Positions 840 through 14,240 are shown, counted from the first letter of the stretch. The stretch is 64,000 nt of DNA from a virus (IMGVR_UViG_3300038856_000064:1-64000); one strand, 5' to 3'. Numbers and translations are program-made. The notes: generated from the letters alone by a model not told the origin.

Positions 840-1018
840 ACGACACTACAGACCAGAGCGTGACCATTTTCTTTACAAGTGGTACACAGATTCAATTTAC
901 TGGCGTGAGTGATGTGAAGAAAACAACCGATCGTATCACCTTCAAGAAGGGTGGAAACGATTATACATTTATGGTTAATACTTTAGCAGGCTGGTCATTA
1001 CCGGCTGGTGTAAAATGA
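833..1018 (+). CDS. hypothetical protein
   Basis: ORF with GAGGA SD, overlaps neighbours. Confidence 0.7.
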   Translation: MLDDTTDQSVTIFFTSGTQIQFTGVSDVKKTTDRITFKKGGNDYTFMVNTLAGWSLPAGVK

Positions 1019-1245
1019 AAATGAAAACTGAATTTATGAATGGCAGGTTTATAGCTAATACGTCTAGCGATGATGGAGTTCAAAGGCTTCGTCTTGAGAT
1101 GTATCAATCTATCGATACGGCGTTATTTACCAGCGTCACGTATAATTGCGTATCATCAGATGACGTCGATAAAATGATTGACGAGCTAAAAGATGCTCGT
1201 AATCAGCTAGTTGTTTTTGAGGAAAAAGCAAAAAAAATCACTTGA
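1015..1245 (+). CDS. hypothetical protein
   Basis: ORF coupled to upstream stop. Confidence 0.7.
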   Translation: MKMKTEFMNGRFIANTSSDDGVQRLRLEMYQSIDTALFTSVTYNCVSSDDVDKMIDELKDARNQLVVFEEKAKKIT

Positions 1246-1269
1246 CAATCAGTCTAAGTAGGCTATACT
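1242..1269 (+). promoter_or_regulatory. sigma70-type promoter TTGACA-N16-TATACT
   Basis: Consensus hexamers with 16-nt spacer upstream of an ncRNA/tRNA cluster. Confidence 0.7.
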
Positions 1270-1282
1270 AGAGTGTTCGAAC

Positions 1283-1366
1283 GAGGCATGCTTCAAGCCT
1301 CTGGATGACACGTTAATGCTATGTCGCCTTGAGCAAGCGATATCTTAGTCATCTAGTTGCTGCTCA
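1283..1366 (+). ncRNA. candidate pseudoknotted ncRNA
   Basis: GAGGC/GCCTC hairpin; TGGATGAC/GTCATCTA stem enclosing ATGTCGC/GCGATAT; loop TGAGCA complementary to TGCTCA at 1361-1366. Confidence 0.5.
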
Positions 1367-1372
1367 TTTTAT

Positions 1373-1457
1373 CGCGGAATAGTGTAACTGGTAACACGCT
1401 TGGCTCATAACCAAGAAACCGAAAAGGCTTGTCCGGGTTCGAGTCCCGGTTCCGCTA
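1373..1457 (+). tRNA. tRNA-Met(CAT), initiator-like (unpaired 1:72), with long variable arm
   Basis: CGCGGAA/TTCCGCT, CTTGG-CTCATAA-CCAAG, CCGGG-TTCGAGT-CCCGG. Confidence 0.85.
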
Positions 1458-1469
1458 AACAATTCTTAT

Positions 1470-1543
1470 GTCGAGGTAGTGTAGCTAAAGGCACGCTGGC
1501 GTTGGAGCCAGTAGAGTAGGTGTGACGCCTACCCTCGACACCA
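1470..1543 (+). tRNA. atypical tRNA, 6- or 8-nt anticodon loop (TTG/TGG ambiguous), encoded CCA
   Basis: GTCGAGG/CCTCGAC-A-CCA, CTGGC-GTTGGA-GCCAG, GTAGG-TGTGACG-CCTAC. Confidence 0.7.
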
Positions 1544-1666
1544 GTCAATCCGAAAGCCAGGGTAGACGATTTCATTTTCCTTTTGTGTTTGAGATATGAA
1601 AAACTCTCATTTAGGCTTGACGATCCGGAGAGACGGGTACATTACCAGGGGCAATCACCTGGGTAT
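1544..1666 (+). ncRNA. candidate structured RNA abutting the tRNA CCA
   Basis: GTCA/TGAC, AGCC/GGCT, TTTCAT/ATGAAA nested stems followed by CCG-GAGAGA-CGG and CCAGG/CCTGG hairpins; no ORF. Confidence 0.4.
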
Positions 1667-1701
1667 AAAAACGTTGCATAATGATGCTTATAAAGTAAAA
1701 A

Positions 1702-1757
1702 GACTACTAGGTGTATCAAACTCCTTGACGCAGAGAGAACTGCAATCTGATGTAGTC
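1702..1757 (+). ncRNA. free-standing copy of the tRNA D-loop insert motif
   Basis: GACTAC/GTAGTC stem enclosing TATCAAA-N9-GCAGAGAGAACTGCA. Confidence 0.75.
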
Positions 1758-1824
1758 ATATAATGTATAATATTGATTTGTAATGGTAGTTGGTGGATCT
1801 ACTTGATTTAAAACCACCTTTTCA

Positions 1825-1901
1825 TGAGTGGAGCAGGGTTGTAATGATTAAGCGGTTCGAGTCCGTAGTAATTATCTAGGTTCGATTCCTAGGCCACTCA
1901 T
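1825..1901 (+). ncRNA. tRNA-like RNA with two T-arms and no anticodon
   Basis: TGAGTGG/CCACTCA; GCGG-TTCGAGT-CCGT; CTAGG-TTCGATT-CCTAG. Confidence 0.7.
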
Positions 1902-1955
1902 TAGTGTATGATATCAGATCATCTATCAAGGAGTTAAAAACGAAGACGATTGTTA

Positions 1956-2028
1956 GGGCGTATAGCATCAAGGACGATGCAGTCGGGCTTCAACCCGAAA
2001 GAGGTGGGTTCGATTCCTACTATGCCCG
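1956..2028 (+). tRNA. atypical tRNA with 6-nt loop CTTCAA (TCA or TTC)
   Basis: GGGCGTA/TATGCCC-G, GCATC/GATGC, TCGGG/CCCGA, GTGGG-TTCGATT-CCTAC. Confidence 0.75.
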
Positions 2029-2044
2029 ATGGAGACAATAGATA

Positions 2045-2269
2045 ATGAAAACAGTATTAGGATTCGGTCTTCATGATATAGAATATACCTATAAATATTG
2101 GGATATTCTAAATGCTGGTGGCGAAACGGAAAGATCACCAAGTAGAATGTGGGAAGCTAAGTATGATTGGCATATCGGTTATGGAGAAACCCAGATCGAA
2201 GCACTAGAACAGTTAATAAGATCTCTGGTCAATTACATAACATTACAAAAGATATTCCCTGGATCATGA
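2045..2269 (+). CDS. hypothetical protein
   Basis: ORF with GGAG upstream. Confidence 0.6.
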   Translation: MKTVLGFGLHDIEYTYKYWDILNAGGETERSPSRMWEAKYDWHIGYGETQIEALEQLIRSLVNYITLQKIFPGS

Positions 2270-2424
2270 AGCCTTACGGTGAGCGAAGACCTAGAGTGGT
2301 TTGGTGTGAAAATCATGGATGTCCATGTTGTGACAGCTATAAATGGCTTCGCAAAAAAGACCGCAAGCCATCTAAATCAAAAGAACGCCAAAGGGCAAAA
2401 CGTAATATCATGAAGTTTACCTGA
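2266..2424 (+). CDS. small very basic Cys-containing protein (MKPYG...CxxxGCPCC)
   Basis: ATGA overlap with upstream stop; K/R-rich tail. Confidence 0.65.
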   Translation: MKPYGERRPRVVWCENHGCPCCDSYKWLRKKDRKPSKSKERQRAKRNIMKFT

Positions 2425-2498
2425 ATACAGCGCTCGTGACCCTCCTTATTTTCTAGTTGTAAAAACACTCAACTAGTAACTATTTTGGAGGAATAATC

Positions 2499-2930
2499 AT
2501 GGACGAACGTACTTATCTCAAGGTAAAGATCAAAAGTTTGGCTGAAGAAGCTAGGATAATTCGCAAGGAAACAAAGCGTGCGAAATCTAAGACTATCAAG
2601 GAAGGATTATACTTACATCGTATCGGAACGGTTCGTATAGAGGCTCGGCACACTCATTTAGCTTATGGCTTTCTGCGTGGTAGGGAGTACCACCAGATCG
2701 AAACCAGTGCTCATAGCGCGCCAGATTGGAAGAAGGTGCGCAAGATGATTGAAAAGTATGGAGCGCATCTAGCAAATTGGCATTTAGACGAGTCTTATAC
2801 AAGCTATAAGGAACGTTGCGATCAGTATAAGGTCGATAAAGAAGAAGTCCTAAAGCGTTTTGATGAATGGATCAAGGCTGCATCTTATTATTATGAGACT
2901 ACTAACACGCAAACAGAGACTACGATTTAA
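2499..2930 (+). CDS. basic hypothetical phage protein
   Basis: Strong GGAGG SD, 143 aa. Confidence 0.8.
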   Translation: MDERTYLKVKIKSLAEEARIIRKETKRAKSKTIKEGLYLHRIGTVRIEARHTHLAYGFLRGREYHQIETSAHSAPDWKKVRKMIEKYGAHLANWHLDESYTSYKERCDQYKVDKEEVLKRFDEWIKAASYYYETTNTQTETTI

Positions 2931-3417
2931 AGAGCATAGCGCTGAAATTCTACCAATTAATCTAGCTGCCATTAATTTTAGGTGTGATGGCAACTTGGGG
3001 CAATTAATCAGAGCGGCGGTTTGTTTCGGTGTAGAGAATCTCTACGTAGTCGGGCATATTCCTACTAGACAAGAGCTAAAAAATATGTCTGGCTCAACAT
3101 TAGATTACATCAATATCATTCAGTGCGAGAATGAAGAAGACCTACTAGATAAGATTAGGGACACGACAGTTCTAGTTGCTGAATTAACTGATGACGCACA
3201 GAATGTTTACGACTTTGAGTTTGATTATTCCAAGCCAACAACTATTATTGTAGGTAATGAATCAGTTGGAGTGCCAGGAGTAATTACAACTAGAGCAGAT
3301 AATGTAGTGTATATTCCCATGCCGGGCTATGGTGTTTGCCTCAATACCGCCCACACGGCTAACATTATGCTGTATGAGGCGGCAAGACAATATTCTCGCA
3401 GTTGCCAGTCTGCATAG
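2893..3417 (+). CDS. SpoU/TrmH-family SPOUT RNA methyltransferase (start uncertain)
   Basis: GNLGQLIRAA, VGNESVG, YIPMPG..CLN motifs. Confidence 0.9.
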   Translation: MRLLTRKQRLRFKEHSAEILPINLAAINFRCDGNLGQLIRAAVCFGVENLYVVGHIPTRQELKNMSGSTLDYINIIQCENEEDLLDKIRDTTVLVAELTDDAQNVYDFEFDYSKPTTIIVGNESVGVPGVITTRADNVVYIPMPGYGVCLNTAHTANIMLYEAARQYSRSCQSA

Positions 3418-3424
3418 AAGATTC

Positions 3425-3493
3425 TTTTGAGTAGTGTAAAGGTCGCATACTATACAAAATATAGTGGTGTGAGTTCGAGTCTCATCTCAAAAA
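3425..3493 (+). tRNA. degenerate AU-rich tRNA-like element
   Basis: TTTTGAG/CTCAAAA, GTGT/GCAT, ACTAT/ATAGT, GTGAG-TTCGAGT-CTCAT. Confidence 0.6.
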
Positions 3494-3542
3494 AGGATCT
3501 TCGGTTATCAAAACTGGCTATTTTATATTCTAGGAGGAAAAA

Positions 3543-4221
3543 ATGACTTCAGTAATAGTAGAGATTAGAGCCGCCGAAGGTGGCAAGGACGCTAAGCTTT
3601 TAGTTCAAGATCAACTAGGGATTTATCGCAAGGTTGCGCAGCGCTACTGTCTTTAGCATCGACGTCATAGAGGATCGGGCGGGGTTCGCTTGTTTCAGGG
3701 TGTCCGGTAAGGGTGCCGAGAGGACGTTCGCCAACGAGGGTGGAGGGCACCGAGTGCAGCGCGTGAGCCCTACAGAGAGGCGTGGAAGGGTCCATACGTC
3801 AACGATTACAGTGGCGGTGCTCCCTGAACCTAAACGACATGAGTTTAATCTAGATGTCCGAGATCTGGAAATTACAACTAGAAGAGGTAGCGGTCCCGGC
3901 GGACAGCATAGGAATAAAACAGACTCGTGCGTTGACATTAAACATAAACCAACCGGGATCGTAGTTTCTATAGATGGACGCTCACAGCATGCGAATAAGG
4001 CGTTAGCCTTGGAGATTCTTTCTGCAAAATTGCTTGCAAAACAGCGTGAGCGTGGTATAGTTGAGCGTAACCAGAACCGAAAAACCCAAGTAGGTTGTGG
4101 TCAGCGTGGTGACAAGCGACGCACTATTAGAATTCAGGATAATCAAGTGGTGGACCATATTCTTGGTAAGACCACAACCTATAAGGAGTATGTCAAAGGA
4201 AACTTCGATAAATTAATCTGA
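3543..4221 (+). CDS. Class I peptide chain release factor, RF1-like, lacking domain 1; needs +1 frameshift at CTT-TAG-C (3651-3657); about 225 aa
   Basis: SD AGGAGG, ATG 3543, EIRAAEGG..A (RF domain 2 start) for 37 codons then TAG; +1 frame carries HRVQRVSPTE..GRVHTS, GPGGQHRNKT and RRTI. Confidence 0.9.
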
Positions 4222-4868
4222 TGTGGCCTTTTAAAAAGAAGCAAGTCCCCTGGTTTCCGGCTATCGGAGATTTTGAGATAGATGAATCGGAGGACTATCT
4301 CGACCCGCATCATAAATCAATAATCAATCAACTCAAAAGTATAGTTCCCCCGGATACCTTTAGGGATGGATATATATGTGGGGGTTTCGCGTCTGCCGCT
4401 ATTGGTATTACCAATTCATACAGTGATATTGATATTTTCATAACGAATAAGGCCACATATAGACGTGTTGCTAATATACTAAGAGGTCTCCCTGGAATAG
4501 CCTTTCTAAAGGAAATCAAAAATGACAGAACCAAAATTAGACGCAACACACTCTCTATAGACGTAATAGATTATAGCGATAAGATTGATCCCTGGCGTTT
4601 GTTATGCAAACCAATACAGATACTAGAAAACTTTGACCTTAATTGGTCTATGGCTTGTATAGATGTCGGAAAACACAAAATCATTTACAATATAGACGCC
4701 TCGTCACCTATGGCTATGGTGAACGAAAATCATGATACAAATTTTTCTCACCAAATAGCAAATAGAATTACCAAGTATCAAGAAAGGTTATGTGCTGAGC
4801 CAGCGAGGGCTTGGAATAATCAACTCATTAAAGCGTTAGTCGAACAAAAGCCTAAGCCGATTTACTAA
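4221..4868 (+). CDS. Pol-beta superfamily nucleotidyltransferase (paralog 1)
   Basis: ICGGF..DIDIF, FDLNWS, RITKY. Confidence 0.75.
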   Translation: MWPFKKKQVPWFPAIGDFEIDESEDYLDPHHKSIINQLKSIVPPDTFRDGYICGGFASAAIGITNSYSDIDIFITNKATYRRVANILRGLPGIAFLKEIKNDRTKIRRNTLSIDVIDYSDKIDPWRLLCKPIQILENFDLNWSMACIDVGKHKIIYNIDASSPMAMVNENHDTNFSHQIANRITKYQERLCAEPARAWNNQLIKALVEQKPKPIY

Positions 4869-4898
4869 AATACAACTAGATAACGAATTATTTAATGT
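4860..4898 (+). repeat. 39-bp direct repeat, copy 1 (copy 2 at 5594-5632)
   Basis: 37/39 identical by manual alignment. Confidence 0.9.
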
Positions 4899-5602
4899 GG
4901 CCATTTAAAGAAAAACCCACCTGTTGGTGGCCAGACTCTGGAGATTTTATCGTAGATGATCTAGGTGATTATATCGATCTACATCAAGAAACAGTAATTC
5001 ACCAGATCAAAAGTATCATGCCTCTACATTTTTTTAATCAGGCATTTATATGTGGGGGATTTGCAGCTAATGTGGTTGGTATTACAAATTCATATGATGA
5101 TGTTGATATTTTTGTAACAGACAGGACAGAGTTTATGCTTACTGTAGATTATTTACAAAGACATCATGATATATGTGTAATGTATCACACTAATTCTAAA
5201 GATGATTATGGAGAAAGATTTAAATTTATATACAAAACCTCAGTCATAGATCTCGTAGACTATAGTAAAGTGATTGATAAACGTCGTCAAGCAGAAATCC
5301 GTTTAGGAAAATTTGATTCAGTATATATTAAGATACTAAAAACTTTTGATATTAACTGGTCTATGGCTTGTATCGATGTAGGTGCCAATGTGGAACAGTG
5401 GCACAAGGTAATCTATCATGAAGACGCCCTATCTCCCACAGTTGCGATGAACGAAGGGCGTCGAATAACTAACAACTACCACATAGCAGAAAGAATTAAT
5501 AAGTATCAATCAAGACTTAGTTTTGCTCCAAACCTTAAATGGAATGATGCGATAGCTAAAAAGCTTATGAGTGACGAGAAAGGATCTCCGTCAATTTACT
5601 AA
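4895..5602 (+). CDS. Pol-beta superfamily nucleotidyltransferase (paralog 2)
   Basis: ICGGF..DVDIF, FDINWS, RINKY; same MWPFK start as paralog 1. Confidence 0.75.
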   Translation: MWPFKEKPTCWWPDSGDFIVDDLGDYIDLHQETVIHQIKSIMPLHFFNQAFICGGFAANVVGITNSYDDVDIFVTDRTEFMLTVDYLQRHHDICVMYHTNSKDDYGERFKFIYKTSVIDLVDYSKVIDKRRQAEIRLGKFDSVYIKILKTFDINWSMACIDVGANVEQWHKVIYHEDALSPTVAMNEGRRITNNYHIAERINKYQSRLSFAPNLKWNDAIAKKLMSDEKGSPSIY

Positions 5603-5603
5603 A

Positions 5604-6749
5604 ATGCAACTAGATAGCGAATTATTTAATGTAGTTGAGAAGGATGGCATGAGGTTGATTCTCCCATGTCATTCTAATGCCGTCTCTAATACGGGGTGGA
5701 CTAGGAAAAATCTATGGCTAAGATCTAGGGTCGAGTGCGCCAAAACTGGAGATACAATCTCTGAGAGCTTTGGAAAATTCTTTAACCTCGGCCAGGGTCC
5801 TGATGAGCTACAGATCAATATAGAAACAGTTCTAGATGCAATTAGAAATAACAGGAGAATTGTCGCAACCCTTAAGTATGATGGAAGCTGCCTGATTAGG
5901 TCGGTTTATAAGGGGGAGGTATTTCTTCGCACTCGTGGGTCATTGAAGTATACGTTTCACGACGATGCGGAAGATGAGATGAGGATCTTTACTGATAAGT
6001 ATCCACGTCTATTTGATCCTACCTGGGAGCCGGCTAAATCTCTGTTGTTTGAGTGGGTTACGCCAGCAGCACAAATTGTTATTTCCTATTCCGAGCCTGA
6101 CCTAGTCCTTCTAGGTGCAGTGGATCACGGTCATCGTCATTACTCTCATTTGAAATATTTGACAATGGAGCAACTAGAGCCAATTGCCGCCGAGTGTGGC
6201 GTAAGGCTAACGGAATACTTCACGATTGATTCAGTTAAGGATTGGTATGATTTTTATCATGAGGTTTTAGACCATAAAGAGATTGAGGGATACGTCCTTC
6301 GGCTTAACGACGAGCAGGATCTGGTTAAGGTTAAGAGCCAGCCATACATTACCAAGCATGGTGTGAAGAGTAATCTTTCGTTTAAGTCGATGGTGGAATT
6401 TTGGTTGCAACATGGTCAAGAGGCTATTTATACTTCGATTTTAGAACAACTAGAAAAGTTATATGACGAAGAAGTTGTCATGTGGGCATTGCCCTTTGTA
6501 GACAATCTCTTTGTCGCAGTCGAAGCGTGGGAGAAGGCTCGCACTAAAGTTGAGCTAGATGTCTCTACTCGTTCTCACTGGTCTCGTAAAGACTTTGCTA
6601 TCGAAATGAAAAAGAAGTATACCGGCGAAGAAGCAATTCTGTTTAGTGTCGCTATGCAACTTTGGCAAGGTAAGCCTATCGCAGACAAGATGATTCGTAG
6701 CTTTATGGAGCGGTTTGATAATGGTATTAAGGGAATGTTCAATGAATAA
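5604..6749 (+). CDS. RNA ligase, T4 Rnl1-like
   Basis: KFFN, KYDGS (motif I), FEW, EGYVL, KVKS; likely ATG at 5604. Confidence 0.85.
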   Translation: MQLDSELFNVVEKDGMRLILPCHSNAVSNTGWTRKNLWLRSRVECAKTGDTISESFGKFFNLGQGPDELQINIETVLDAIRNNRRIVATLKYDGSCLIRSVYKGEVFLRTRGSLKYTFHDDAEDEMRIFTDKYPRLFDPTWEPAKSLLFEWVTPAAQIVISYSEPDLVLLGAVDHGHRHYSHLKYLTMEQLEPIAAECGVRLTEYFTIDSVKDWYDFYHEVLDHKEIEGYVLRLNDEQDLVKVKSQPYITKHGVKSNLSFKSMVEFWLQHGQEAIYTSILEQLEKLYDEEVVMWALPFVDNLFVAVEAWEKARTKVELDVSTRSHWSRKDFAIEMKKKYTGEEAILFSVAMQLWQGKPIADKMIRSFMERFDNGIKGMFNE

Positions 6750-7089
6750 CGAACATCGAATCAAGCTCCTCCTTAAGCTTCGTGCCTTGCGAACCGTTTT
6801 ACTAGCCGCTATCAAAAGAATAGAAAATGCTACACAGGGGGTAAACCAGCGATGGCGCGAGAAAACTGTAGACAATCTTACTCAAACCTTGGGGGTTATT
6901 GAGCGTAATATTGATGCATTGCAACAACTACCAGATATTCTAGGTGAAAAAACAGTAGCCCCGTCTGGAACCAGAGAATATACTGAAATGCAAAGCATCG
7001 AGGAGTATCGTAAGTTTCAGGGGCTACCACCAATTACTCAGAACGACATCATCTCAGTTGACTGGAAAGATCTACTAGGTAAATTATGA
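6742..7089 (+). CDS. hypothetical protein
   Basis: ORF overlapping ligase stop. Confidence 0.7.
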   Translation: MNNEHRIKLLLKLRALRTVLLAAIKRIENATQGVNQRWREKTVDNLTQTLGVIERNIDALQQLPDILGEKTVAPSGTREYTEMQSIEEYRKFQGLPPITQNDIISVDWKDLLGKL

Positions 7090-7325
7090 AAACTAAAGAT
7101 AAGCAAACTCTGCGGCGTCGTATTGAAGAAGTCTGTGCCATCCAAGGCGGATGGATGAACGGCGATGGCGAAAAGATTTGGAGTGACCCCGATCAAGTCG
7201 AAATGGTCGCTGTGACTTTATCAAACAAGCTAGGAGTATCTCCCGGAGTATTTCCGGACAACAATGGATATGTATCTCTTCAGTGGTTTCTAGGTGATGA
7301 TAATTTACTAGAGGTTCTGGTATGA
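7086..7325 (+). CDS. hypothetical protein
   Basis: coupled ORF. Confidence 0.65.
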   Translation: MKTKDKQTLRRRIEEVCAIQGGWMNGDGEKIWSDPDQVEMVAVTLSNKLGVSPGVFPDNNGYVSLQWFLGDDNLLEVLV

Positions 7326-7549
7326 ATCCTTTTTTAAAGTTTTTAACCGTAGTGTTTGGTATACTATCGTTCATACATATCGCCTATGCATTTACAATAT
7401 GCATATATACACTTAATATGCTATCAAGTAGTCATCCTGACACTATTCAAATTAACGAATGGGTGTCCTGGACAGCCCTGCCGGCATTCCTGATGGGGGG
7501 CTTCTTCGGCATGTGTACTGCTGAATTAAGTGATGCAAATTGCAATTAG
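7322..7549 (+). CDS. small two-TM membrane protein
   Basis: two hydrophobic segments. Confidence 0.6.
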   Translation: MNPFLKFLTVVFGILSFIHIAYAFTICIYTLNMLSSSHPDTIQINEWVSWTALPAFLMGGFFGMCTAELSDANCN

Positions 7550-7599
7550 ACTACACACAGAAAATAAGAGACGCGGAGAGTGACTATGGGGAAAAATAA

Positions 7600-7818
7600 A
7601 TGAATGTCTATCTAGTTGAATTTTCTGATCGTATGTATGGGTTTACGATTCGTGCAATTGTTGGCCCATCCTCAGTAGAAGAATGCAAGAAATATTGTGA
7701 GGATAAATTCGGATGTCAATTCGACAAACCTTACTTAAAGACATATGCGATGATATCAGATGTTTGTGACATTATGCGCGATAGAATTACTTATTGCGAA
7801 TTTGGATATCAAGAATAA
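7600..7818 (+). CDS. hypothetical protein
   Basis: ORF in operon. Confidence 0.6.
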   Translation: MNVYLVEFSDRMYGFTIRAIVGPSSVEECKKYCEDKFGCQFDKPYLKTYAMISDVCDIMRDRITYCEFGYQE

Positions 7819-8099
7819 TGAATAATTTTAAACACGATTGTATAGAGGCTGTATTGGAGGGTGACTCAATAGTTATACGTATCTCAAGCAAGTATTTGAC
7901 TAATATCGCGATGCCTGCGTCGTTCGAAGGTATTACTGGCTACGAAGATGCTGTAATTATCGACAAGAAACAATTAATCAAAGATGTTCTAGTTGAACTT
8001 AACCGCGAGGCTGAAGATGGAACGACTATGATTCATCTTATGCTAGATGAAGCTATCACAGACGCATATGACAATGGGTCGGAGGCATTTGAGGGATGA
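7818..8099 (+). CDS. hypothetical protein
   Basis: TAATG-coupled ORF. Confidence 0.7.
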   Translation: MNNFKHDCIEAVLEGDSIVIRISSKYLTNIAMPASFEGITGYEDAVIIDKKQLIKDVLVELNREAEDGTTMIHLMLDEAITDAYDNGSEAFEG

Positions 8100-8659
8100 A
8101 TATCTGGGTGACGTCTGACTCGCACTTTTCCCATCGTAACATTTTACAATATTGCAATCGCCCCTGGTCATCCGTCGAGGAAATGAATCAGGGATTGATT
8201 GATAGATGGAACGAAAGAGTTGGCAAGAATGATGTCGTATATCATCTAGGTGATTTTTGCCTTACTACTAAAATAGACCTAATTGATGAATGGTTATCTC
8301 AGCTAAATGGTACGATTCGGCTAGTAAAAGGTAATCACGACGTCTGGATAAAAAAGCTAGATAGGTTAGAATACGGACACAAGATTGAATGGATCAGAGA
8401 TTACTCTAAACAAACCGTAATGATTGATGATCAAAAACATCAAGTGGTTATGTTTCATTTTCCAATAATGTTCTGGGAGAATAGTCATCATGGGAGTGTT
8501 CATCTGCATGGACATTGTCATGGAAATGCTCAAAATCATAATAAGAATCTACGTCGATTTGATGTTGGCGTAGATTGTAATGACTGGTATCCGGTATTGC
8601 TAGATGACGTCGTCAGACAACTAGTAAATAAAGACACTAATCCGCACCATAACGACTAG
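8096..8659 (+). CDS. calcineurin-like metallophosphoesterase
   Basis: SDSH, HLGD, GNHD, HGHCH, DVGVD. Confidence 0.92.
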   Translation: MNIWVTSDSHFSHRNILQYCNRPWSSVEEMNQGLIDRWNERVGKNDVVYHLGDFCLTTKIDLIDEWLSQLNGTIRLVKGNHDVWIKKLDRLEYGHKIEWIRDYSKQTVMIDDQKHQVVMFHFPIMFWENSHHGSVHLHGHCHGNAQNHNKNLRRFDVGVDCNDWYPVLLDDVVRQLVNKDTNPHHND

Positions 8660-8690
8660 GCTTCTTGGGATAAATAAATGACTACTAGAA

Positions 8691-9008
8691 ATGAAAATCA
8701 TTAAGAAAACACGGAAATATCTTCATGTTCGTATGACTGAAGATGAATACGAGCTACTTCAAAAGAGTATTCTTGAGCAAGATATCGAGAAGCAAAAAGA
8801 GGAAGAGCAGCTAGCATATGCTGAGTGGTTTTTTACCAATCATGTTGAAATCAACTGGCAGGATGAATATAGTTCATGGCATACTGATTGGAGGAATATC
8901 CATACAGGAAAATACGTACAAAATCCTAATTTCCATGTAACGATCTATAAATCACGATTTGCTGATGTTATTAAAGATAACAAGAAGCTACTAAAACAGA
9001 AAAAATAA
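8691..9008 (+). CDS. hypothetical protein
   Basis: 105-aa ORF. Confidence 0.7.
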   Translation: MKIIKKTRKYLHVRMTEDEYELLQKSILEQDIEKQKEEEQLAYAEWFFTNHVEINWQDEYSSWHTDWRNIHTGKYVQNPNFHVTIYKSRFADVIKDNKKLLKQKK

Positions 9009-9021
9009 TAAGAAGAAATGC

Positions 9022-9050
9022 TTGATTTTGACGTAGTCCTAGTGTATAAT
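9022..9050 (+). promoter_or_regulatory. promoter TTGATT-N17-TATAAT containing TAGTGTATAAT motif
   Basis: upstream of tRNA-Pro cluster. Confidence 0.6.
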
Positions 9051-9094
9051 GCCTTTATGCGCGGAGGAGTTCCGCTGTTTCCAAAACAATATTT

Positions 9095-9173
9095 CAGGGT
9101 ATAGCTCAGTCTGGTTTAGAGCGTTCCGTTTGGGGCGGAAAAGTCGGGAGTTCAAATCTCTCTACCTTGACCA
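9095..9173 (+). tRNA. tRNA-Pro(TGG) with CCA
   Basis: CAGGGTA/TACCTTG-A-CCA; TTCCG-TTTGGGG-CGGAA. Confidence 0.93.
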
Positions 9174-9313
9174 ATGGTCTAGGAGCAGCCATAAAGTGCT
9201 CACCTCTAGAAAGAGTTTATGAAGTCAACGCGCAAGCGAGCCCTTCTTGTCCGGTATAGCTCACCTAGTTGCATGGAAAGCCGGTTTCTTTTATAGTTGC
9301 GTAAGCAACCATG
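9174..9313 (+). ncRNA. structured RNA resembling 23S rRNA H43/H44 (GTPase-associated centre) with insertions
   Basis: TGGTCTAGGAGCAGCCAT, AAAGAGT and ATAGCTCAC in 23S order; two GNRA hairpins; lies between tRNA-Pro and tRNA-Phe. Confidence 0.65.
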
Positions 9314-9318
9314 TTTAT

Positions 9319-9389
9319 GGAGGTGTCGGTTACATGGGTAACAGCGAGGTGAAAACTCGCGGGGTCTGGTTCGAATCCAGGAGCCTCCA
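9319..9389 (+). tRNA. tRNA-Phe(GAA), atypical D-arm
   Basis: GGAGGT/GCCTCC, GCGAG-GTGAAAA-CTCGC, TCTGG-TTCGAAT-CCAGG. Confidence 0.8.
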
Positions 9390-9413
9390 ATCATTTTAAA
9401 AAAGGATAGGATC

Positions 9414-9833
9414 ATGACTGAAGAAGATATCATTTATGATGGGTCGGAAGAACCACTAGCCCCTGGTGAGGGGGTTAAGTGTACGGGTTACCATAAAGTC
9501 GAGTTTAGTATGAATGACGAAAAGAACGTCGCCGTCATTGTGCAGGGTACTAACGGAATGTCCGACGCCGACGTTCAAGGAGAGGCTCGACGTCAAACGC
9601 CGCAGACTATTCTAGATGAAGTCGCCGGAGATACAAATTGCGTAACATATGAATGTTGTGAGGAGTGTATAGCTGTTGCTAGTTGGTCGAATCCACTAAT
9701 TGCAACTACGATTCCATCTGCGCCACAACGCTTTAATGTAGGAACCTCGATTGAGTTTGCGGTAGTTCATGTTAAACTAACTTTTGAGGCTGATATCAGC
9801 GCGATTGGCTCATGTGAGTGTCCCGAATCATAA
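9414..9833 (+). CDS. Acidic Cys-rich hypothetical protein (paralog of 459..839)
   Basis: EGVKCTG, MSDAD, ECCEEC, CECPES. Confidence 0.8.
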   Translation: MTEEDIIYDGSEEPLAPGEGVKCTGYHKVEFSMNDEKNVAVIVQGTNGMSDADVQGEARRQTPQTILDEVAGDTNCVTYECCEECIAVASWSNPLIATTIPSAPQRFNVGTSIEFAVVHVKLTFEADISAIGSCECPES

Positions 9834-9839
9834 TCTTGA

Positions 9840-9923
9840 TGGAGTGTGGCGGAACTGGTAGACGCACTAAACTGTTAATTTAGCGCCCGTGAGGGTTTGC
9901 AGGTTCGAAGCCTGCCACTCCAG
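9840..9923 (+). tRNA. tRNA-Asn(GTT) on a class II (long variable arm) body
   Basis: TGGAGTG/CACTCCA-G, CTAAA-CTGTTAA-TTTAG, CCC-GTGA-GGG variable arm. Confidence 0.88.
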
Positions 9924-9931
9924 ATACTTAT

Positions 9932-10003
9932 GGTAGATGTGTTGTAATGGTAGCATATAAGATTGTGTCTCTTAAGGTGGGAGTTCGATTCTCCTCATTT
10001 GCC
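9932..10003 (+). tRNA. tRNA-His(GTG) with encoded G-1
   Basis: GGTAGATG/CATTTGCC, TAAGA-TTGTGTC-TCTTA. Confidence 0.88.
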
Positions 10004-10005
10004 CT

Positions 10006-10206
10006 ATGAAAGCAACTAGAATGGAAGACGATGGATATGACGGTAGTGAATATTCCTTACAAGAAATAGCTGCCCTTGATGAATACTTTAAAAGGTATAC
10101 TAAGATAGCTAATTTATACAATGAGCTTATTCTTCTAGAAGAAAATCTTTCTCGTAAGGAATTATTAGAGTTAATGCTTTGCGACTTACATGAAGAAAAT
10201 AAGTAA
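10006..10206 (+). CDS. acidic hypothetical protein
   Basis: 66-aa ORF. Confidence 0.55.
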   Translation: MKATRMEDDGYDGSEYSLQEIAALDEYFKRYTKIANLYNELILLEENLSRKELLELMLCDLHEENK

Positions 10207-10233
10207 TTGATGGCACCACCAAAGGGGTAAAGT

Positions 10234-10344
10234 ATGTATAAAGACATTGATAAGTTTCGTACGGCTAAGGGGTGGCTAACTATTCGTTGGCTAGGTGAGT
10301 CGAATGGCTACTATAGTGAAAGCGTAGATATACTAAAGGTATGA
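10234..10344 (+). pseudogene. 36-codon remnant resembling the C-terminus of a common phage protein ([13 protein letters not shown])
   Basis: [36 protein letters not shown]; N-terminal part apparently absent. Confidence 0.45.
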
Positions 10345-10541
10345 ACAAGCTATATGGTAGACTCGCCGGACGATGTCGCTATCACGGGATGAATAAATTC
10401 GGTGGTGGTGGTAAGGTGTGCTTCAATCGCCAAAAACATATTTGTGAAGTCGCAGCGGAGTGTAATGCATCTAGAAAATCAAAATATAGTAAACGCTATA
10501 TGAGGAGACAGGCGCGTAGGCGAGATTGGGAATTGCCATGA
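10341..10541 (+). CDS. small very basic Cys/His protein
   Basis: ATGA-coupled; R/K-rich. Confidence 0.6.
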
Positions 10542-10654
10542 TGGTCTGCTCTAGGTGTCATAAATAAAATTCAAAAAACAGTAGCCAACTCTAGTATGTG
10601 TGATACAATAGAGTGTTCAAGGCAGTATTTCTAACAGTAACAGTAACAAATAAA

Positions 10655-10996
10655 ATGATGAATCTACTAATTTGCGTTCTAATCTCAGTTCTTTGCTCTT
10701 GTAGTGACACGCCCGCGCAGGGTGGTCAAGAGAGTAATCTTCCGCCGTTCCAGCATTCGGATCCATGGGGCGGTCAGGGTAACCACAAGGGTCACAAGGG
10801 GCATAAGAAGCACAAGCGATGCAAGCACGGCTGCCTTCCCTCCTCTTGCGAAGAGCGGACCTGCAAGCATCACAAGCGGCGCGATCCATGCACCCCGGCA
10901 CCCGTCCCAGAGCCGATGACGATGCTCCTGATGGGCACTGGCTTGGTCGGCGCGGGAGCCTGGAATAAGCGTCGCCGCCGCAATTCCTCGATGTGA
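10655..10996 (+). CDS. PEP-CTERM sorting-domain protein with lipoprotein-like signal and His/Lys/Cys-rich core
   Basis: VLCSC lipobox; C-terminal PVPEP + TM + KRRRR; GC-rich. Confidence 0.85.
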   Translation: MMNLLICVLISVLCSCSDTPAQGGQESNLPPFQHSDPWGGQGNHKGHKGHKKHKRCKHGCLPSSCEERTCKHHKRRDPCTPAPVPEPMTMLLMGTGLVGAGAWNKRRRRNSSM

Positions 10997-11172
10997 TGTC
11001 ACGCCGTAGTAATGAGTGGGCCAAGACTTTTTTGGTCCTTAGTGTATTACTATCTCTAGTTGCTTTTGTATGGGTTGTTTTTGATCGAGTAGCTAAAAGA
11101 GCTGAGATTGAGACGAATTATAAAAAGTGGCTACTAGAAAATAAATACAGTGAAGATGAGTTGTATAGATAA

Positions 11173-11248
11173 TGGGGCGTGGCCAAATTGGAATTAAGGC
11201 ACTCGACTACGAATCGAGAGATTGCAAGTTCGAATCTTGTCGTCCCTG
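11173..11248 (+). tRNA. tRNA-Arg(ACG)
   Basis: GGGGCG/CGTCCC, CTCGA-CTACGAA-TCGAG, GCAAG-TTCGAAT-CTTGT. Confidence 0.9.
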
Positions 11249-11263
11249 TTTAAAGGCAAACTA

Positions 11264-11434
11264 ATGAAAATCGAACCAGGACAGATCGTCGTAGTTAACG
11301 GACAAACTCTAGTTGCCCGTGAAACTTTTCGTGGACTAGGAACAATGTGGGTTCGCTACACGATTTCTGGTCGCAATCAAGATGAGAATCGCTATACTAC
11401 TCGTGACGAGTGGGTTCAATGGAGTAACAACTAG
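11264..11434 (+). CDS. hypothetical protein
   Basis: ATG after tRNA, AAGG upstream. Confidence 0.55.
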   Translation: MKIEPGQIVVVNGQTLVARETFRGLGTMWVRYTISGRNQDENRYTTRDEWVQWSNN

Positions 11435-11442
11435 TAGATTAA

Positions 11443-11516
11443 ATCGGGGTGGCGTAATTGGCTAACGCAGCACACTCTGAATGTGAAGATTCTAGGTTCG
11501 AGTCCTAGTCCCGGTA
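11443..11516 (+). tRNA. tRNA-Gln(CTG)
   Basis: ATCGGGG/TCCCGGT, CACA-CTCTGAA-TGTG, CTAGG-TTCGAGT-CCTAG. Confidence 0.88.
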
Positions 11517-11530
11517 TATTATAGATTCAT

Positions 11531-11653
11531 GGCCCTAAGTGTAGGCTTGCACGGTTACGTATCTCGTAGATTTGTTAGCTACAATGAAGAAATCACGACG
11601 ATCGAGTGATATCTAGAGGCGTAAACAGAGCCGGTTCGAGTCCGGCGGGGTCA
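11531..11653 (+). ncRNA. tRNA-like RNA with two-hairpin insertion replacing the anticodon loop
   Basis: GGCCCT/GGGGTC, GTGT/GCAC D-stem, TTACGT/GCGTAA stem, GCCGG-TTCGAGT-CCGGC. Confidence 0.7.
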
Positions 11654-11693
11654 ACATTATACCTCTCTAGTAGAGATGGTATGATAATAATAT

Positions 11694-11782
11694 GGGGTAG
11701 CGCTTGGGCGTGACGCGACGGCGTTGTGATGGTTCGAATCCATCGTGGGATATCCAGGTTCGATTCCTGGTCTACCCCTCCA
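11694..11782 (+). ncRNA. tRNA-like RNA with two T-arms, ends in encoded CCA
   Basis: GGGGTAG/CTACCCC-T-CCA; GATGG-TTCGAAT-CCATC; CCAGG-TTCGATT-CCTGG. Confidence 0.75.
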
Positions 11783-11821
11783 TTTAATGCGTTCGGTTAA
11801 AATTTGGGCTGAGAGAAAAGC

Positions 11822-12034
11822 ATGAGGCAAATATTCAGCAAACAAACTGATAGTCGCGGGAATAAAGACTGGCGCAAGCCCTGGCTGGGCAAGCGCAGAT
11901 CTACAAGTTTTGATTCTAGTTGTCAGAATCATGGCGGCTGTAGCTATTGTAAGCGCAATAGGACTCATAAGAACCGTAAGCGCGAACTAGAAGCTCAAGA
12001 ACAATTAGAAGATTTCGAAAATGGCTTGACTTAG
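11822..12034 (+). CDS. small basic protein with CxNHGxCxYC motif
   Basis: DSSCQNHGGCSYCKRNR. Confidence 0.7.
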   Translation: MRQIFSKQTDSRGNKDWRKPWLGKRRSTSFDSSCQNHGGCSYCKRNRTHKNRKRELEAQEQLEDFENGLT

Positions 12035-12053
12035 TCTATCTAGATGGTATAAT
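12026..12053 (+). promoter_or_regulatory. promoter TTGACT-N16-TATAAT with extended -10; leaderless ATG at 12059
   Basis: TGG-TATAAT-AGAGT-ATG. Confidence 0.7.
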
Positions 12054-12058
12054 AGAGT

Positions 12059-12268
12059 ATGAAGACACAAGGAATGACCGTATCTGAGTTGCGTGAAGCG
12101 ATGCATGCGTTGCTACCCTCTGAAGTGCCGCACACAAAAGCAGACGAGGCACGCTGTGCGCTCTATCATGAGCTTGAGCACGCCGAGGCTTATATGATGG
12201 GCTGGGGCAAAACCAAGCTACCAGAGCCGCGTGACCCCAGGGAGGTAATCAAGGATTTCAATGGATGA
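12059..12268 (+). CDS. hypothetical protein
   Basis: ORF 5 nt after -10 box. Confidence 0.7.
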   Translation: MKTQGMTVSELREAMHALLPSEVPHTKADEARCALYHELEHAEAYMMGWGKTKLPEPRDPREVIKDFNG

Positions 12269-12452
12269 CTGGTATGAGGAGTATGTAACGGTAACGGAAG
12301 AGGTGTTTGAGGCACAGAGGCTTCTAGATAAAGCCAACGACATTATTGGCGCTCTGTTGGATCAGCAGGCTATGCCAGATGCCGAGTTGGAGTTGGAAAT
12401 CAATATTTGGAAGGATAACAGGGCTAGTTGGAATAAGCGAATATATTCCTAG
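12261..12452 (+). CDS. hypothetical protein
   Basis: coupled ORF. Confidence 0.65.
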   Translation: MDDWYEEYVTVTEEVFEAQRLLDKANDIIGALLDQQAMPDAELELEINIWKDNRASWNKRIYS

Positions 12453-12466
12453 TAGATACTAAGCGA

Positions 12467-12539
12467 AGCCCTGTAGCTCAGCGGTTAGAGCAGCGTCCTT
12501 ATAAGACGAAGGCCGAAAGTTCAACTCTTTCCAGGGCTA
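12467..12539 (+). tRNA. tRNA-Ile(TAT)
   Basis: AGCCCTG/CAGGGCT-A, CGTC-CTTATAA-GACG, canonical D and T arms. Confidence 0.92.
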
Positions 12540-12576
12540 TTATTATGCCAATATTTCATCACAAGACGACTAATAT

Positions 12577-12647
12577 ACCTCATCCGGTGGCATCCGGTGC
12601 TGGAACTCCTAATTCTGGTTACGCAAGTTCGATTCTTGCATGAGGCG
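12577..12647 (+). tRNA. tRNA-Arg(CCT), aberrant D-arm
   Basis: CCTCAT/ATGAGG, GAA-CTCCTAA-TTC, GCAAG-TTCGATT-CTTGC. Confidence 0.7.
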
Positions 12648-12656
12648 ATAATTATT

Positions 12657-12893: not shown

Positions 12894-12954
12894 AGACGTT
12901 CTAGTGTTCCAAACTTCAAAACTCTAACGAAAAAAATCCCAAAAACAAAATCAA

Positions 12955-13804: not shown

Positions 13805-14146
13805 ATGACTACTTGGAAAAAAGTCCTGACATTAGAAATGATGCGTGATCGTATTACGTATTATAATCAGCGCATTAAATGTAGGGTAAAAAATAAGAAA
13901 AGGTCAGCCGCTTACATCCTGGAAAATGGTAAGATTCTTCCAATAGTTCCTAACTCTGGTAAGTTTATCCACATACTATATATGGAAAGGGGTTTTCCAA
14001 TTGATGTAGCTAGACAAATTCTAGAAGACAAAGGGCTAGCGGCTGATGAAGAACAATTACAGATGTGTATTAACAATGAGCTGATCAAACAAATTAAAGC
14101 ACGAGAAAGAAAAAACCGGAGGGTAGATCGTTCGATTCGATCGTAA
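13805..14146 (+). CDS. protein with stand-alone AlaRS helical-domain-like segment
   Basis: SGKFIHILYMERGFPIDVARQILEDKGLAADEEQL resembles AlaRS GxxAFxLYDTYGFPxDLxxxxxxExGxxVDExGF. Confidence 0.6.
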   Translation: MTTWKKVLTLEMMRDRITYYNQRIKCRVKNKKRSAAYILENGKILPIVPNSGKFIHILYMERGFPIDVARQILEDKGLAADEEQLQMCINNELIKQIKARERKNRRVDRSIRS

Positions 14147-14240
14147 GCTTGGCCTGCTGGTCGCGGTGCGAGCCCGCTATATAAATATAGAAGACAAAAG
14201 TTCGACGGAACGCCCGGAGGTTCGAATCCTCCCTTTCTCA
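14103..14240 (+). ncRNA. tRNA-like RNA with three T-loop-type hairpins
   Basis: GAGAAAG/CTTTCTC-A; GATCG-TTCGATT-CGATC; GCGG-TGCGAGC-CCGC; GGAGG-TTCGAAT-CCTCC. Confidence 0.6.

What the first reader, a model, noticed from the sequence alone, without database searches (positions are those of the whole stretch)
1825..11782. Family of anticodon-less tRNA-like RNAs with two T-arms
Seen: 1825-1901 and 11694-11782 each have a 7-bp acceptor stem, a normal T-arm (AT-CYAGG-TTCGATT-CCTRG plus one extra nt), and a second GG-TTCGARY-CC hairpin where the anticodon arm should be; both have TTGTRAT upstream of it. Acceptor sequences differ but pair, and the second ends in encoded CCA. Inference: a tRNA-mimic class presenting elbows but no anticodon, e.g. 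decoys for EF-Tu, RNase P or tRNA-targeting toxins, or a double-T-loop platform that binds tRNA elbows as in T-box, RNase P and the L1 stalk.
Basis: partly seen in the sequence, partly recalled or inferred. Interest (0 to 1): 0.75.

Follow-up and report, generated by a model that had tools for sequence, protein, structure and literature searches.

The report
Phage tRNA look-alikes with two T-arms
Two small genes in this phage's tRNA cluster encode tRNA-shaped RNAs with a second T-arm and no usable anticodon; one belongs to a conserved, uncatalogued RNA family also present, unannotated, in cultured cyanophages, and what it does is unknown.

Summary
Both loci have a perfect 7-bp acceptor stem, a canonical T-arm and a second T-arm-like hairpin. 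Neither reaches any Rfam threshold.

E2 (11694-11782) belongs to a real RNA family. A relaxed IMG/VR pattern scan brought in many phage RNAs built the same way:
- acceptor stem
- small D hairpin with a UUGG loop
- 5-bp hairpin with a GACG loop
- inner T-arm
- a 9-11 nt UGG..AAU linker
- terminal T-arm

Evidence for the family:
- A covariance model built without E2 scores E2 at 61.5 bits (E about 1e-12). Ordinary tRNAs score 24 bits or less.
- All five helices covary: 96% of cells paired, and 20 of 26 pairs changed on both sides.
- Members lie 1-6 nt from neighbouring tRNA genes.
- They are unannotated in the cultured Synechococcus phages S-CREM1, B3 and B23.

E1 (1825-1901) scores 32 bits. It lacks the GACG hairpin and is a peripheral variant without orthologues. 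The inner loops follow T-loop rules, not anticodon-loop rules.

Function is inferred only. I think it is a non-decoding, tRNA-processed mimic showing two elbows, probably a decoy.

Earlier notes of this scan describe twin-T-arm RNAs in coliphages. My model found none in T4, RB69 or N4.

The parts
11694..11782 (+). E2: full member of the GACG-hairpin double-T-arm tRNA-like RNA family (89 nt with U73 and encoded CCA)
   Evidence: Model R1, built without it, gives 61.5 bits, E 7.5e-13, over all 89 model positions. Sequence, fold.
11694..11700 (+). E2 acceptor stem, 5' strand GGGGUAG, pairing with 11772-11778 CUACCCC
   Evidence: Seven Watson-Crick pairs. Mean pair probability 0.80.
11701..11710 (+). 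E2 mini D hairpin CGC-UUGG-GCG
   Evidence: Aligns to the family's D hairpin with its conserved UUGG loop.
11712..11725 (+). E2 hairpin GACGC-GACG-GCGUU, the family hallmark: a 5-bp stem with a GACG loop
   Evidence: GACG is invariant in the 14 sequences of alignment A4; of 20 elements found by my descriptor, 16 have GACG and 4 another loop. The stem covaries. Aligned.
11728..11744 (+). E2 inner T-arm-like hairpin GAUGG-UUCGAAU-CCAUC
   Evidence: Pair probability 0.92.
11745..11753 (+). E2 linker GUGGGAUAU, matching the family linker with conserved UGG and A-rich end
11754..11770 (+). E2 terminal T-arm CCAGG-UUCGAUU-CCUGG. It is followed by one extra U (11771), the acceptor 3' strand (11772-11778), U73 (11779) and CCA (11780-11782).
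   Evidence: The extra U is an insertion relative to the family model.
1825..1901 (+). E1: peripheral double-T-arm tRNA-like RNA without the GACG hairpin. Parts: acceptor 1825-1831 with 1894-1900; mini D hairpin 1833-1842; long stem 1844-1850 with 1869-1875; inner T hairpin 1852-1866; T-arm 1876-1892; extra G 1893; U73 1901.
   Evidence: Sequence, cloverleaf minimum-free-energy fold, helix probabilities. R1 gives 32.1 bits, E 5e-6, against 24.4 or less for ordinary tRNAs. Rfam tRNA gives only 13.5 bits.
14103..14239 (+). E3: a related, larger tRNA-like RNA outside the finding's span. Parts: acceptor GAGAAAG/CUUUCUC; mini D hairpin 14115-14124; inner T hairpin 14126-14142; hairpin GUUC-GACG-GAAC at about 14196-14209; terminal T-arm 14216-14232.
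   Evidence: An orthologue at L075 15910-16019 has compensatory changes in both T hairpins. R1 aligns only its 3' half, 23.9 bits.

Best explanation
E2, and more loosely E1, are genes for non-decoding tRNA mimics.

Shown:
- E2 belongs to a conserved phage RNA family with five helices closed by a tRNA-type acceptor stem: a small D hairpin with a UUGG loop, a 5-bp hairpin with a GACG loop, an inner T-arm, a UGG-containing linker and a terminal T-arm stacked next to the acceptor.
- Members sit in phage tRNA clusters, often 1-6 nt from the neighbouring tRNA genes.

Inferred:
- The RNA is transcribed with the tRNAs. It is cut out by RNase P and 3' trimming because it keeps the acceptor/T-arm minihelix. 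It receives or keeps CCA; this phage encodes its own CCA-adding-type enzyme and an RNase T-like exonuclease.
- It folds so that each of the two T-loops is locked by one of the two GG-bearing segments (the D loop and the linker). That gives a compact particle with two tRNA 'elbows' and no anticodon.
- Acceptor stems and discriminator bases are not conserved, so it is probably not charged by one particular synthetase.
- Its most likely action is shape mimicry. It would compete for, or occupy, a factor that reads the tRNA elbow or T-arm: a host tRNA-targeting defence enzyme, RNase P, the CCA enzyme, T-arm modification enzymes or a ribosomal elbow contact.
- The setting fits a conflict over tRNAs. 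The window is a tRNA maturation and repair island with Rnl1, Rnl2, a kinase and phosphoesterases.
For: Family and fold:
- 14 IMG/VR members align without E2.
- 96.4% of cells form a standard pair. 20 of 26 pairs change on both sides, and 0 of 500 shuffles reach the observed values. Slid controls give 46-55% paired.
- RNAalifold predicts the same five helices unaided, with 19 compensatory pairs.

Membership:
- R1 scores E2 at 61.5 bits, E 7.5e-13, over the full model length.
- E1 scores 32.1 bits. The best ordinary tRNA in the same search scores 24.4.

Spread:
- 46 + 13 matches at E < 1e-4 in 196 loci. All are on viral contigs; none is among the 43 prokaryote-genome pattern hits.
- S-CREM1 scores 105 bits and B3 73.7 bits, both unannotated and inside tRNA clusters.

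tRNA-like handling:
- 24 of 43 members have tRNAs within 1.5 kb, and many lie 1-6 nt from their neighbours.

T-loop rather than anticodon loop:
- Family inner loops are UUCGAUU, UUCAAUU, UUCGAGU and UUUGAUU, all closed by G-C.
- The position that would be nucleotide 37 is mostly U. Established tRNA knowledge requires a purine there.
- In contrast, the true tRNA-Ser(CGA) of this phage's relatives varies as CUCGAAA or UUCGAAC, with A-U closing pairs.

Context:
- Rnl1, Rnl2 and phosphoesterases.
- Kinase, RNase T-like exonuclease and SpoU methylase.
- CCA-adding-type enzyme at 164692-165063.
Against: - No expression data.
- No partner was found. Genes next to stand-alone members share no family.
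- E1 and E2 have no orthologue in 14 relatives of this phage, and their flanking ORFs have no homologues. The two copies here are recent arrivals or fast-turning-over.
- Members were retrieved with a pattern that demands two T-loop motifs. The invariance of the T-loop columns is therefore partly by construction. The B3 member, found without the pattern, has a weaker inner loop.
- The two-elbow tertiary fold and the decoy role are inference only.
- E1 lacks the hallmark hairpin and could be unrelated in origin.
Confidence: 0.5

Rival explanations
1. Processing or punctuation element. The RNA's only role would be to give RNase P and 3'-end enzymes a cutting and stabilising site inside polycistronic transcripts. 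That would set the ends of neighbouring tRNAs or small mRNAs. The body itself would have no trans-acting role.
For: Members abut tRNAs at 1-6 nt. E2 lies 40 nt upstream of a 70-aa ORF, and E3 overlaps the end of an ORF. Only the acceptor/T minihelix is needed for RNase P cleavage (established knowledge).
Against: A punctuation site needs no second T-arm, no invariant GACG loop and no conserved UUGG and UGG segments. All of these are conserved with covarying stems.
Confidence: 0.15
2. Evolutionary debris: by-products of recombination between T-arm repeats in a fast-changing tRNA cluster, with no function. This could still hold for E1 alone.
For: E1 and E2 have no orthologues in Rnl1-defined relatives. 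Their flanking ORFs are orphans. E1's T stem equals that of the phage's tRNA-Gln. This phage clade is full of odd tRNA-like genes.
Against: E2 matches a family with strong covariation across unrelated contigs. Both RNAs keep perfect acceptor stems and every helix. E3's two T hairpins keep pairing through compensatory changes.
Confidence: 0.12
3. Aberrant decoding tRNA-Ser(CGA). The inner loop UUCGARU would be an anticodon loop (U33, CGA, R37), as ARAGORN proposes for E2.
For: ARAGORN calls E2, and some family members, tRNA-Ser(cga). Relatives carry a non-canonical tRNA-Ser(CGA) with loop UUCGAAC. The phage has no other tRNA-Ser.
Against: The family loop is mostly UUCGAUU, with a pyrimidine at '37', and its 'anticodon' varies (CGA, CAA, UGA) while T-loop positions stay fixed. 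E1's arm is about 11 bp long. E2 has no long variable arm, and an extra hairpin lies between the D arm and this arm. ARAGORN's call uses a shifted, mismatched acceptor. Rfam tRNA scores are 13.5 bits or none.
Confidence: 0.04
4. Elbow-docking platform. The two T-loops would interdigitate, as in T-box stem I, RNase P and the L1 stalk, and would bind the elbows of real tRNAs.
For: There are two T-loop motifs in one small RNA. The double T-loop docking motif is described in PMC3664808 (found).
Against: In the known motif the two T-loops lie in one stem, as a distal bulge and an apical loop a few pairs apart. Here they cap two separate 5-bp hairpins 9-11 nt apart, and each has its own GG-bearing candidate partner within the RNA.
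Confidence: 0.04

Closest known systems
Bacteriophage T4 RNA C (species 1, rnaC) and RNA D (species 2, rnaD)
   Same: Both are small RNAs encoded inside a phage tRNA cluster next to tRNA genes. rnaC ends in a canonical T-arm closed by a terminal stem. From my own knowledge, they are co-processed with the tRNAs and their function is still unknown.
   Different: They have no second T-arm, no GACG hairpin and no five-helix junction. Model R1 scores rnaC at 18.6 bits, the same as ordinary T4 tRNAs, and does not hit rnaD. No R1 match anywhere in T4.
Canonical tRNA (Rfam RF00005), in particular class II tRNA-Ser(CGA)
   Same: 7-bp acceptor stem, standard T-arm, GG in a D-type loop, position in a tRNA operon, and an encoded CCA in E2. 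The inner loop can formally be read as anticodon CGA.
   Different: The D arm is reduced to 3-4 bp. There is no anticodon arm of correct geometry and no long variable arm. There is a second T-arm. Scores lie far below the Rfam threshold.
tRNA-like domain of tmRNA, including tag-less 'TLD-only' tmRNAs of phages
   Same: A tRNA mimic without an anticodon that keeps the acceptor and T-arm. This genome also carries mini-tmRNA genes according to earlier notes of this scan, which I did not re-test.
   Different: tmRNA needs G3.U70 and A73 for alanylation and pairs with SmpB. E2 has G3-C70 and U73, and family acceptor stems vary. No Rfam tmRNA hit beyond 7 bits on a bare T-loop.
YrlA, bacterial and phage Y RNA (Rfam RF02553) with Ro60/Rsr
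   Same: A non-coding RNA with a tRNA-like module that acts by mimicry (PMC4201824).
   Different: No RF02553 hit at E up to 10. No TROVE/Ro60 gene in the genome. There is no Ro-binding stem.
Interdigitated double T-loop motif of T-box stem I, RNase P and the L1 stalk (PMC3664808)
   Same: Two T-loop motifs in one RNA, with a link to tRNA elbows.
   Different: In the known motif both loops belong to one stem and interlock. Here they are two separate hairpin loops, each with its own likely GG partner.
Engineered tRNA scaffolds for expressing foreign RNA modules (my own knowledge; cf. PMC7590224 on aptamer-tagged tRNAs)
   Same: The acceptor/T-arm frame secures processing and stability while the anticodon region is replaced by another folded module. 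E1 fits this picture best.
   Different: These RNAs are natural, and the inserted module is itself a T-arm.

Membership tests
   E2 scores 61.5 bits, E 7.5e-13, over model positions 1-89. Ordinary tRNAs score 24.4 bits or less. E1 scores 32.1 bits, which is borderline.
GACG-hairpin double-T-arm tRNA-like RNA (model R1) | 5-bp hairpin with a GACG loop between the D hairpin and the inner T-arm | tested here: met
   E2 has GACGC-GACG-GCGUU at 11712-11725. E1 does not have it; the model deletes this helix for E1.
GACG-hairpin double-T-arm tRNA-like RNA (model R1) | Two T-arm hairpins, 9-11 nt apart, both enclosed by one 7-bp acceptor stem, with a UUGG D loop and a UGG linker | tested here: met
   E2 has all of these. 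E1 has two T hairpins and a GG-bearing D loop, but the inner one sits on a 7-bp extension and there is no UGG linker.
Canonical tRNA (Rfam RF00005) | Score at or above the gathering threshold of 29 bits | tested here: not met
   E1 scores 13.5 bits. E2 has no RF00005 hit listed; after clan competition the best is tRNA-Sec at 18-20 bits against a threshold of 47.
Canonical tRNA (Rfam RF00005) | Anticodon arm of 5 bp with a 7-nt loop (U33, purine 37), stacked on a 4-bp D stem | tested here: not met
   E1's arm is 7 + 4 bp with an internal loop. In E2 an extra hairpin intervenes. Family loops mostly have U at '37'.
tRNA-Sec (Rfam RF01852) | Score of 47 bits or more, 8/5 acceptor/T stems, 6-bp D stem, UCA anticodon, long variable arm | tested here: not met
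   18-21 bits, with many non-pairs in the alignment. No UCA loop.
YrlA Y RNA with Ro60 | RF02553 match and a Ro60 (TROVE) gene in the genome | tested here: not met
   No hit at E up to 10. PF05731 is absent while the control genomes are positive.
tmRNA tRNA-like domain | G3.U70 and A73-CCA (alanine identity), and a tmRNA model match | tested here: not met
   E2 has G3-C70 and U73. E1 has A3-U70 and U73. Only 7-bit T-loop fragments match the permuted tmRNA model.
T4 rnaC / rnaD | Homology to the T4 small stable RNAs | tested here: not met
   R1 gives rnaC 18.6 bits, the tRNA background, and does not hit rnaD. BLAST of the E1 and E2 regions against 50,697 phage records finds nothing.
Interdigitated double T-loop motif | Two T-loops in one stem (distal bulge plus apical loop) that interlock | tested here: not met
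   The secondary structure places them on separate hairpins. The interlocking itself is not testable without a 3D structure.
T-arm (identity of the inner hairpin) | G53-C61 closing pair and loop U54 U55 C56 R57 A58 N59 Y60 on a stem of about 5 bp | tested here: met
   E1 GCGG-UUCGAGU-CCGU (4 bp). E2 GAUGG-UUCGAAU-CCAUC. E3 GAUCG-UUCGAUU-CGAUC. Family members likewise. Whether U54 and U55 are modified is not testable here.

The most novel reading that the evidence does not exclude
The family would be a new class of phage 'two-elbow' tRNA decoy. Such an RNA would pass through tRNA maturation. It would then occupy or poison a host factor that recognises tRNA shape rather than the anticodon. That would neutralise a tRNA-targeting defence, or retune RNase P, the CCA enzyme or ribosomal elbow sites, in favour of the phage's own tRNAs.
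Probability: 0.2. Interest if true: 0.8.

Novelty: new variant of a known kind. Interest (0 to 1): 0.62.

Why it matters
- Phage tRNA clusters are usually annotated gene by gene with tRNA finders. Those tools skip this RNA or miscall it as tRNA-Ser(CGA), tRNA-Leu(CAG) or a pseudogene.
- It is nevertheless a conserved, structured gene found on dozens of viral contigs and in at least three cultured cyanophages.
- It adds a well-supported family, with a clear five-helix model, to the few tRNA-like phage RNAs whose role has been open since T4 RNA C and D.
- Because S-CREM1, B3 and B23 grow on laboratory Synechococcus strains, expression, processing, modification, partners and knock-out phenotypes can be tested directly.
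- If it acts as a decoy in the contest over tRNAs, it would be an RNA-based counterpart to phage tRNA repair and to replacement tRNAs.

Tried and rejected
- BLAST of both regions against 50,697 phage records found no match.
- An IMG/VR scan requiring TTGTRAT plus two T-loops gave one chance hit, an ordinary tRNA-like gene followed by a T hairpin.
- Relatives found through the phosphoesterase and through Rnl1 hold no E1 or E2 orthologue by BLAST, T-arm census or model R1.
- The ORFs flanking E1 and E2 have no homologues in 5.8 billion proteins.
- The only other contig carrying E2's neighbour is the same phage, with 0 differences in 20 kb, so there is no polymorphism to read.
- Sigma-70 promoter and terminator scans were at background. 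The GTATGATA motif was not enriched.
- An E3-type pattern scan of IMG/VR gave zero hits.
- The strict two-T-loop pattern in prokaryote genomes gave 43 hits, none matching R1. Many look like a tRNA gene followed by a second T-arm copy; I did not classify them one by one.
- The tRNA-Ser(CGA) reading is rejected on loop rules and geometry.
- Membership of YrlA, tmRNA, tRNA-Sec or T4 rnaC/rnaD is rejected (see the membership tests).
- No shared neighbouring protein was found among stand-alone members.
- No R1 match in T4, RB69 or N4. I therefore could not link this family to the roughly 108-nt twin-T-arm RNAs that earlier notes of this scan report in coliphages.
- I tried searching the relatives' whole records, but they are not held.

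Full report
**Setting.** The window is the first 64 kb of a 175,148-bp virus record. Its last 126 bases repeat window positions 5-130. An ENA contig of 175,159 bp is a circular permutation that is identical over 20 kb. The genome is therefore probably complete. Positions 150-19,100 hold a plus-strand tRNA cluster. It is interleaved with tRNA-handling genes:
- Rnl1, Rnl2, phosphoesterases, an RF1-domain protein, NAMPT and NMNAT-Nudix.
- A SpoU methylase, an RNase T-like exonuclease and a kinase.
- A CCA-adding-type enzyme lies elsewhere in the genome.

**Observation.**
- E1 (1825-1901) folds as a cloverleaf. It has a 7-bp acceptor, a 3-bp D hairpin with loop GGGU, and a 7-bp stem carrying a 4-bp hairpin with loop UUCGAGU. 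A standard T-arm, one extra G and the acceptor 3' strand follow.
Then come the inner hairpin GAUGG-UUCGAAU-CCAUC, a 9-nt linker, the T-arm, one extra U, the acceptor 3' strand, U73 and CCA.
- The motif GGTTCGANTCC occurs 11 times against 0.07 expected. It occurs twice within 26 nt only in E1 and E2.
- Perfect 7-bp acceptors beside a T-arm are improbable by chance, and every helix is well populated in the ensemble.
- Neither element reaches any Rfam threshold. E1 scores 13.5 bits on tRNA; E2 scores 18-20 bits on tRNA-Sec against a threshold of 47.

**Search for relatives of the phage.** BLAST against cultured phages found nothing. Through Rnl1 I found a clade of uncultured phages at 53-78% identity and fetched their syntenic tRNA regions. 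None has an orthologue of E1 or E2. The small ORFs flanking E1 and E2 are orphans. The clade is rich in other non-canonical tRNA-like genes. Two of them bear on this finding.

1. Relatives carry, after tRNA-Ser(GCU), a conserved class II tRNA-Ser(CGA) that tRNA finders miss.
   - Its anticodon loop reads UUCGAAC or CUCGAAA, closed by A-U pairs.
   - One relative has an ordinary tRNA-Ser(UGA) in the same place.
   - So a loop that looks like a T-loop can be a true anticodon loop. In that case it varies under anticodon-loop rules: U33, CGA and A37 are kept while the first and last positions are free.
2. Window 14103-14239 (E3) is a third RNA with an internal T hairpin directly after a mini D hairpin.
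   - It has an orthologue in one relative (L075 15910-16019) with the same acceptor stem.
   - Compensatory changes preserve both T hairpins.
   - Its inner loop UUCGAUU has a pyrimidine where nucleotide 37 would be. No decoding tRNA shows this.

**The family.** A strict two-T-loop pattern scan of IMG/VR gave mostly tRNA genes followed by a loose T hairpin.
- After filtering for a perfect acceptor stem around both T-arms, 42 elements remained. Most share E2's exact plan, including the GACG hairpin.
- I aligned 14 members without E2.
- For the five helices, 96.4% of cells pair and 20 of 26 pairs change on both sides. No shuffle reaches the observed values, and sliding the partners drops pairing to 46-55%.
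- RNAalifold finds the same fold unaided.
- Conserved unpaired features are UUGG in the D loop, GACG, both T-loops, and UGG..AA in the linker.
- Caveat: the T-loops were part of the search pattern, so their invariance is partly by construction. The stems and the other motifs were not.

**Membership.** The covariance model R1 scores as follows over window positions 1-20,000, filters off.

| Element | R1 score |
|---|---|
| E2, full model length | 61.5 bits, E 7.5e-13 |
| E1, GACG hairpin deleted | 32.1 bits, E 5e-6 |
| Best ordinary tRNA | 24.4 bits |
| E3, 3' half only | 23.9 bits |

- E3's aligned half contains a GUUC-GACG-GAAC hairpin just before its T-arm.
- E2 is therefore a member. E1 is a peripheral variant comparable to a few IMG/VR oddities scoring 34-41 bits.
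- One of those, L188, shares with E1 and E2 a TTGTATT motif and an extra nucleotide before the acceptor strand.
- R1 finds 46 + 13 matches at E < 1e-4 in 196 loci. All are viral, and none lies among the 43 pattern hits from prokaryote genomes.
- In cultured phages it finds Synechococcus phage S-CREM1 (105 bits) and B3 (73.7 bits); B23 was found by BLAST. In S-CREM1 and B3 it lies in an unannotated gap of the tRNA cluster.
- T4, RB69 and N4 have none. T4 rnaC and rnaD are not members.
- The best members are not in Rfam. Literature searches found no description.

**How it probably works.**
- Shown: members sit in tRNA clusters, often 1-6 nt from the neighbouring tRNA genes. They keep the acceptor/T-arm minihelix.
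- Established knowledge: that minihelix is what RNase P, 3'-end trimming and the CCA-adding enzyme need.
- Inferred: the RNA is matured like a tRNA and accumulates as a stable RNA.
- It cannot decode. The inner loops obey T-loop rules and not anticodon rules, and the geometry is wrong.
- Acceptor stems and discriminators differ freely between members. A shared aminoacylation identity is therefore unlikely, and so is an EF-Tu decoy.
- Two GG-bearing segments and two T-loops suggest two D-loop/T-loop-type contacts, that is, a particle with two elbows. This is inference.
- No conserved neighbouring protein points to a partner.
- My best guess is a shape decoy for a factor that reads the tRNA elbow or T-arm. 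That fits the tRNA repair and maturation island of this phage. I put about 0.9 on 'real RNA family with E2 as a member' and about 0.25-0.3 on the decoy role.

**Rivals.**
- A pure processing signal does not explain the conserved inner modules.
- Debris is excluded for E2 but remains possible for E1.
- A decoding tRNA-Ser(CGA) is contradicted by loop variation and geometry.
- The interdigitated double T-loop platform does not fit the secondary structure.

**Relation to earlier notes of this scan.** Other agents reported twin-T-arm tRNA-like RNAs of about 108 nt in T4-like and N4-like coliphages, and two-headed tRNA-like RNAs in jumbo phages. I could not show that these are the same family, since R1 finds nothing in T4, RB69 or N4. 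The design as such has therefore been met before in this scan on other DNA.

Noticed in passing
L065 16829-16916; L084 about 6494-6583; L086 about 5146-5230; L091 about 7509-7600; L073 15915-15997; L075 11724-11806: A conserved non-canonical class II tRNA-Ser(CGA) in relatives of this phage. It has a mini D arm (GUCA-AGG-UGAC) and a 4-bp T stem, and both ARAGORN and the Rfam tRNA model miss it. It is the positional equivalent of an ordinary tRNA-Ser(UGA) in L150 11853-11944.
   Followed up: partly
window 14103-14239 and L075 15910-16019: E3 is a 137-nt tRNA-like RNA with an internal T hairpin, a GACG hairpin and a terminal T-arm. It overlaps the end of ORF 13805-14146. One relative has an orthologue with compensatory changes.
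   Followed up: partly
L065 about 5030-5115 and L066 about 5810-5895: A free-standing, circularly permuted tRNA body. The order is anticodon-stem half, T-arm, acceptor hairpin closed by a triloop, D arm, other anticodon-stem half. It sits among repeated GGTTCCTTCTAA motifs.
   Followed up: no
window 1956-2028; L065 5641-5713; L066 6157-6228; L067 5554-5627; L148 about 2037-2108: A tRNA with a UCA-type anticodon region. The loop has 6 nt in this phage and 8 nt (CUUUCAAU or CAUUCAAU) in relatives. It lies upstream of an RF1-domain gene, which hints at stop-codon or frameshift decoding.
   Followed up: no
whole window: AACTAGWWGA, allowing one mismatch, occurs 89 times against 19 expected. It often lies just before start codons or tRNA genes. 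CTAGTAGA precedes tRNA-Gln, E2 and tRNA-Ile(UAU) at 11431, 11667 and 12449.
   Followed up: partly
G000 175023-175148 and window 5-130: The contig ends overlap by 126 bases, and an identical ENA contig is a circular permutation. The genome is probably complete, although CheckV estimates 82%.
   Followed up: yes
G000 164692-165063: The phage encodes a CCA-adding / poly(A) polymerase family enzyme (PF01743, 468-aa open frame).
   Followed up: partly
L010, L013, L018, L020, L022, L024, L031, L041 (IMG/VR): In unrelated viral contigs a complete tRNA gene is followed at once by a T-arm hairpin and the conserved sequence TCGGTGGTYGAGGTCTGGTGAG. I have not identified this element.
   Followed up: no
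L065 16481-16566; L070 6692-6780; L150 about 11520-11605; L072 18133-18217; L073 19093-19177: Conserved tRNA-like RNAs ending in ACCA, with an acceptor stem and T-arm but a non-tRNA interior (GUUCUUCAC...GUGAAG). They may be tag-less tmRNA-like genes.
   Followed up: no
L065 17740-17811; L067 16760-16830; L150 about 13980-14052: A conserved odd tRNA-like gene with loop UUGCAAG (anticodon GCA) and an unusual D region. ARAGORN does not call it.
   Followed up: no
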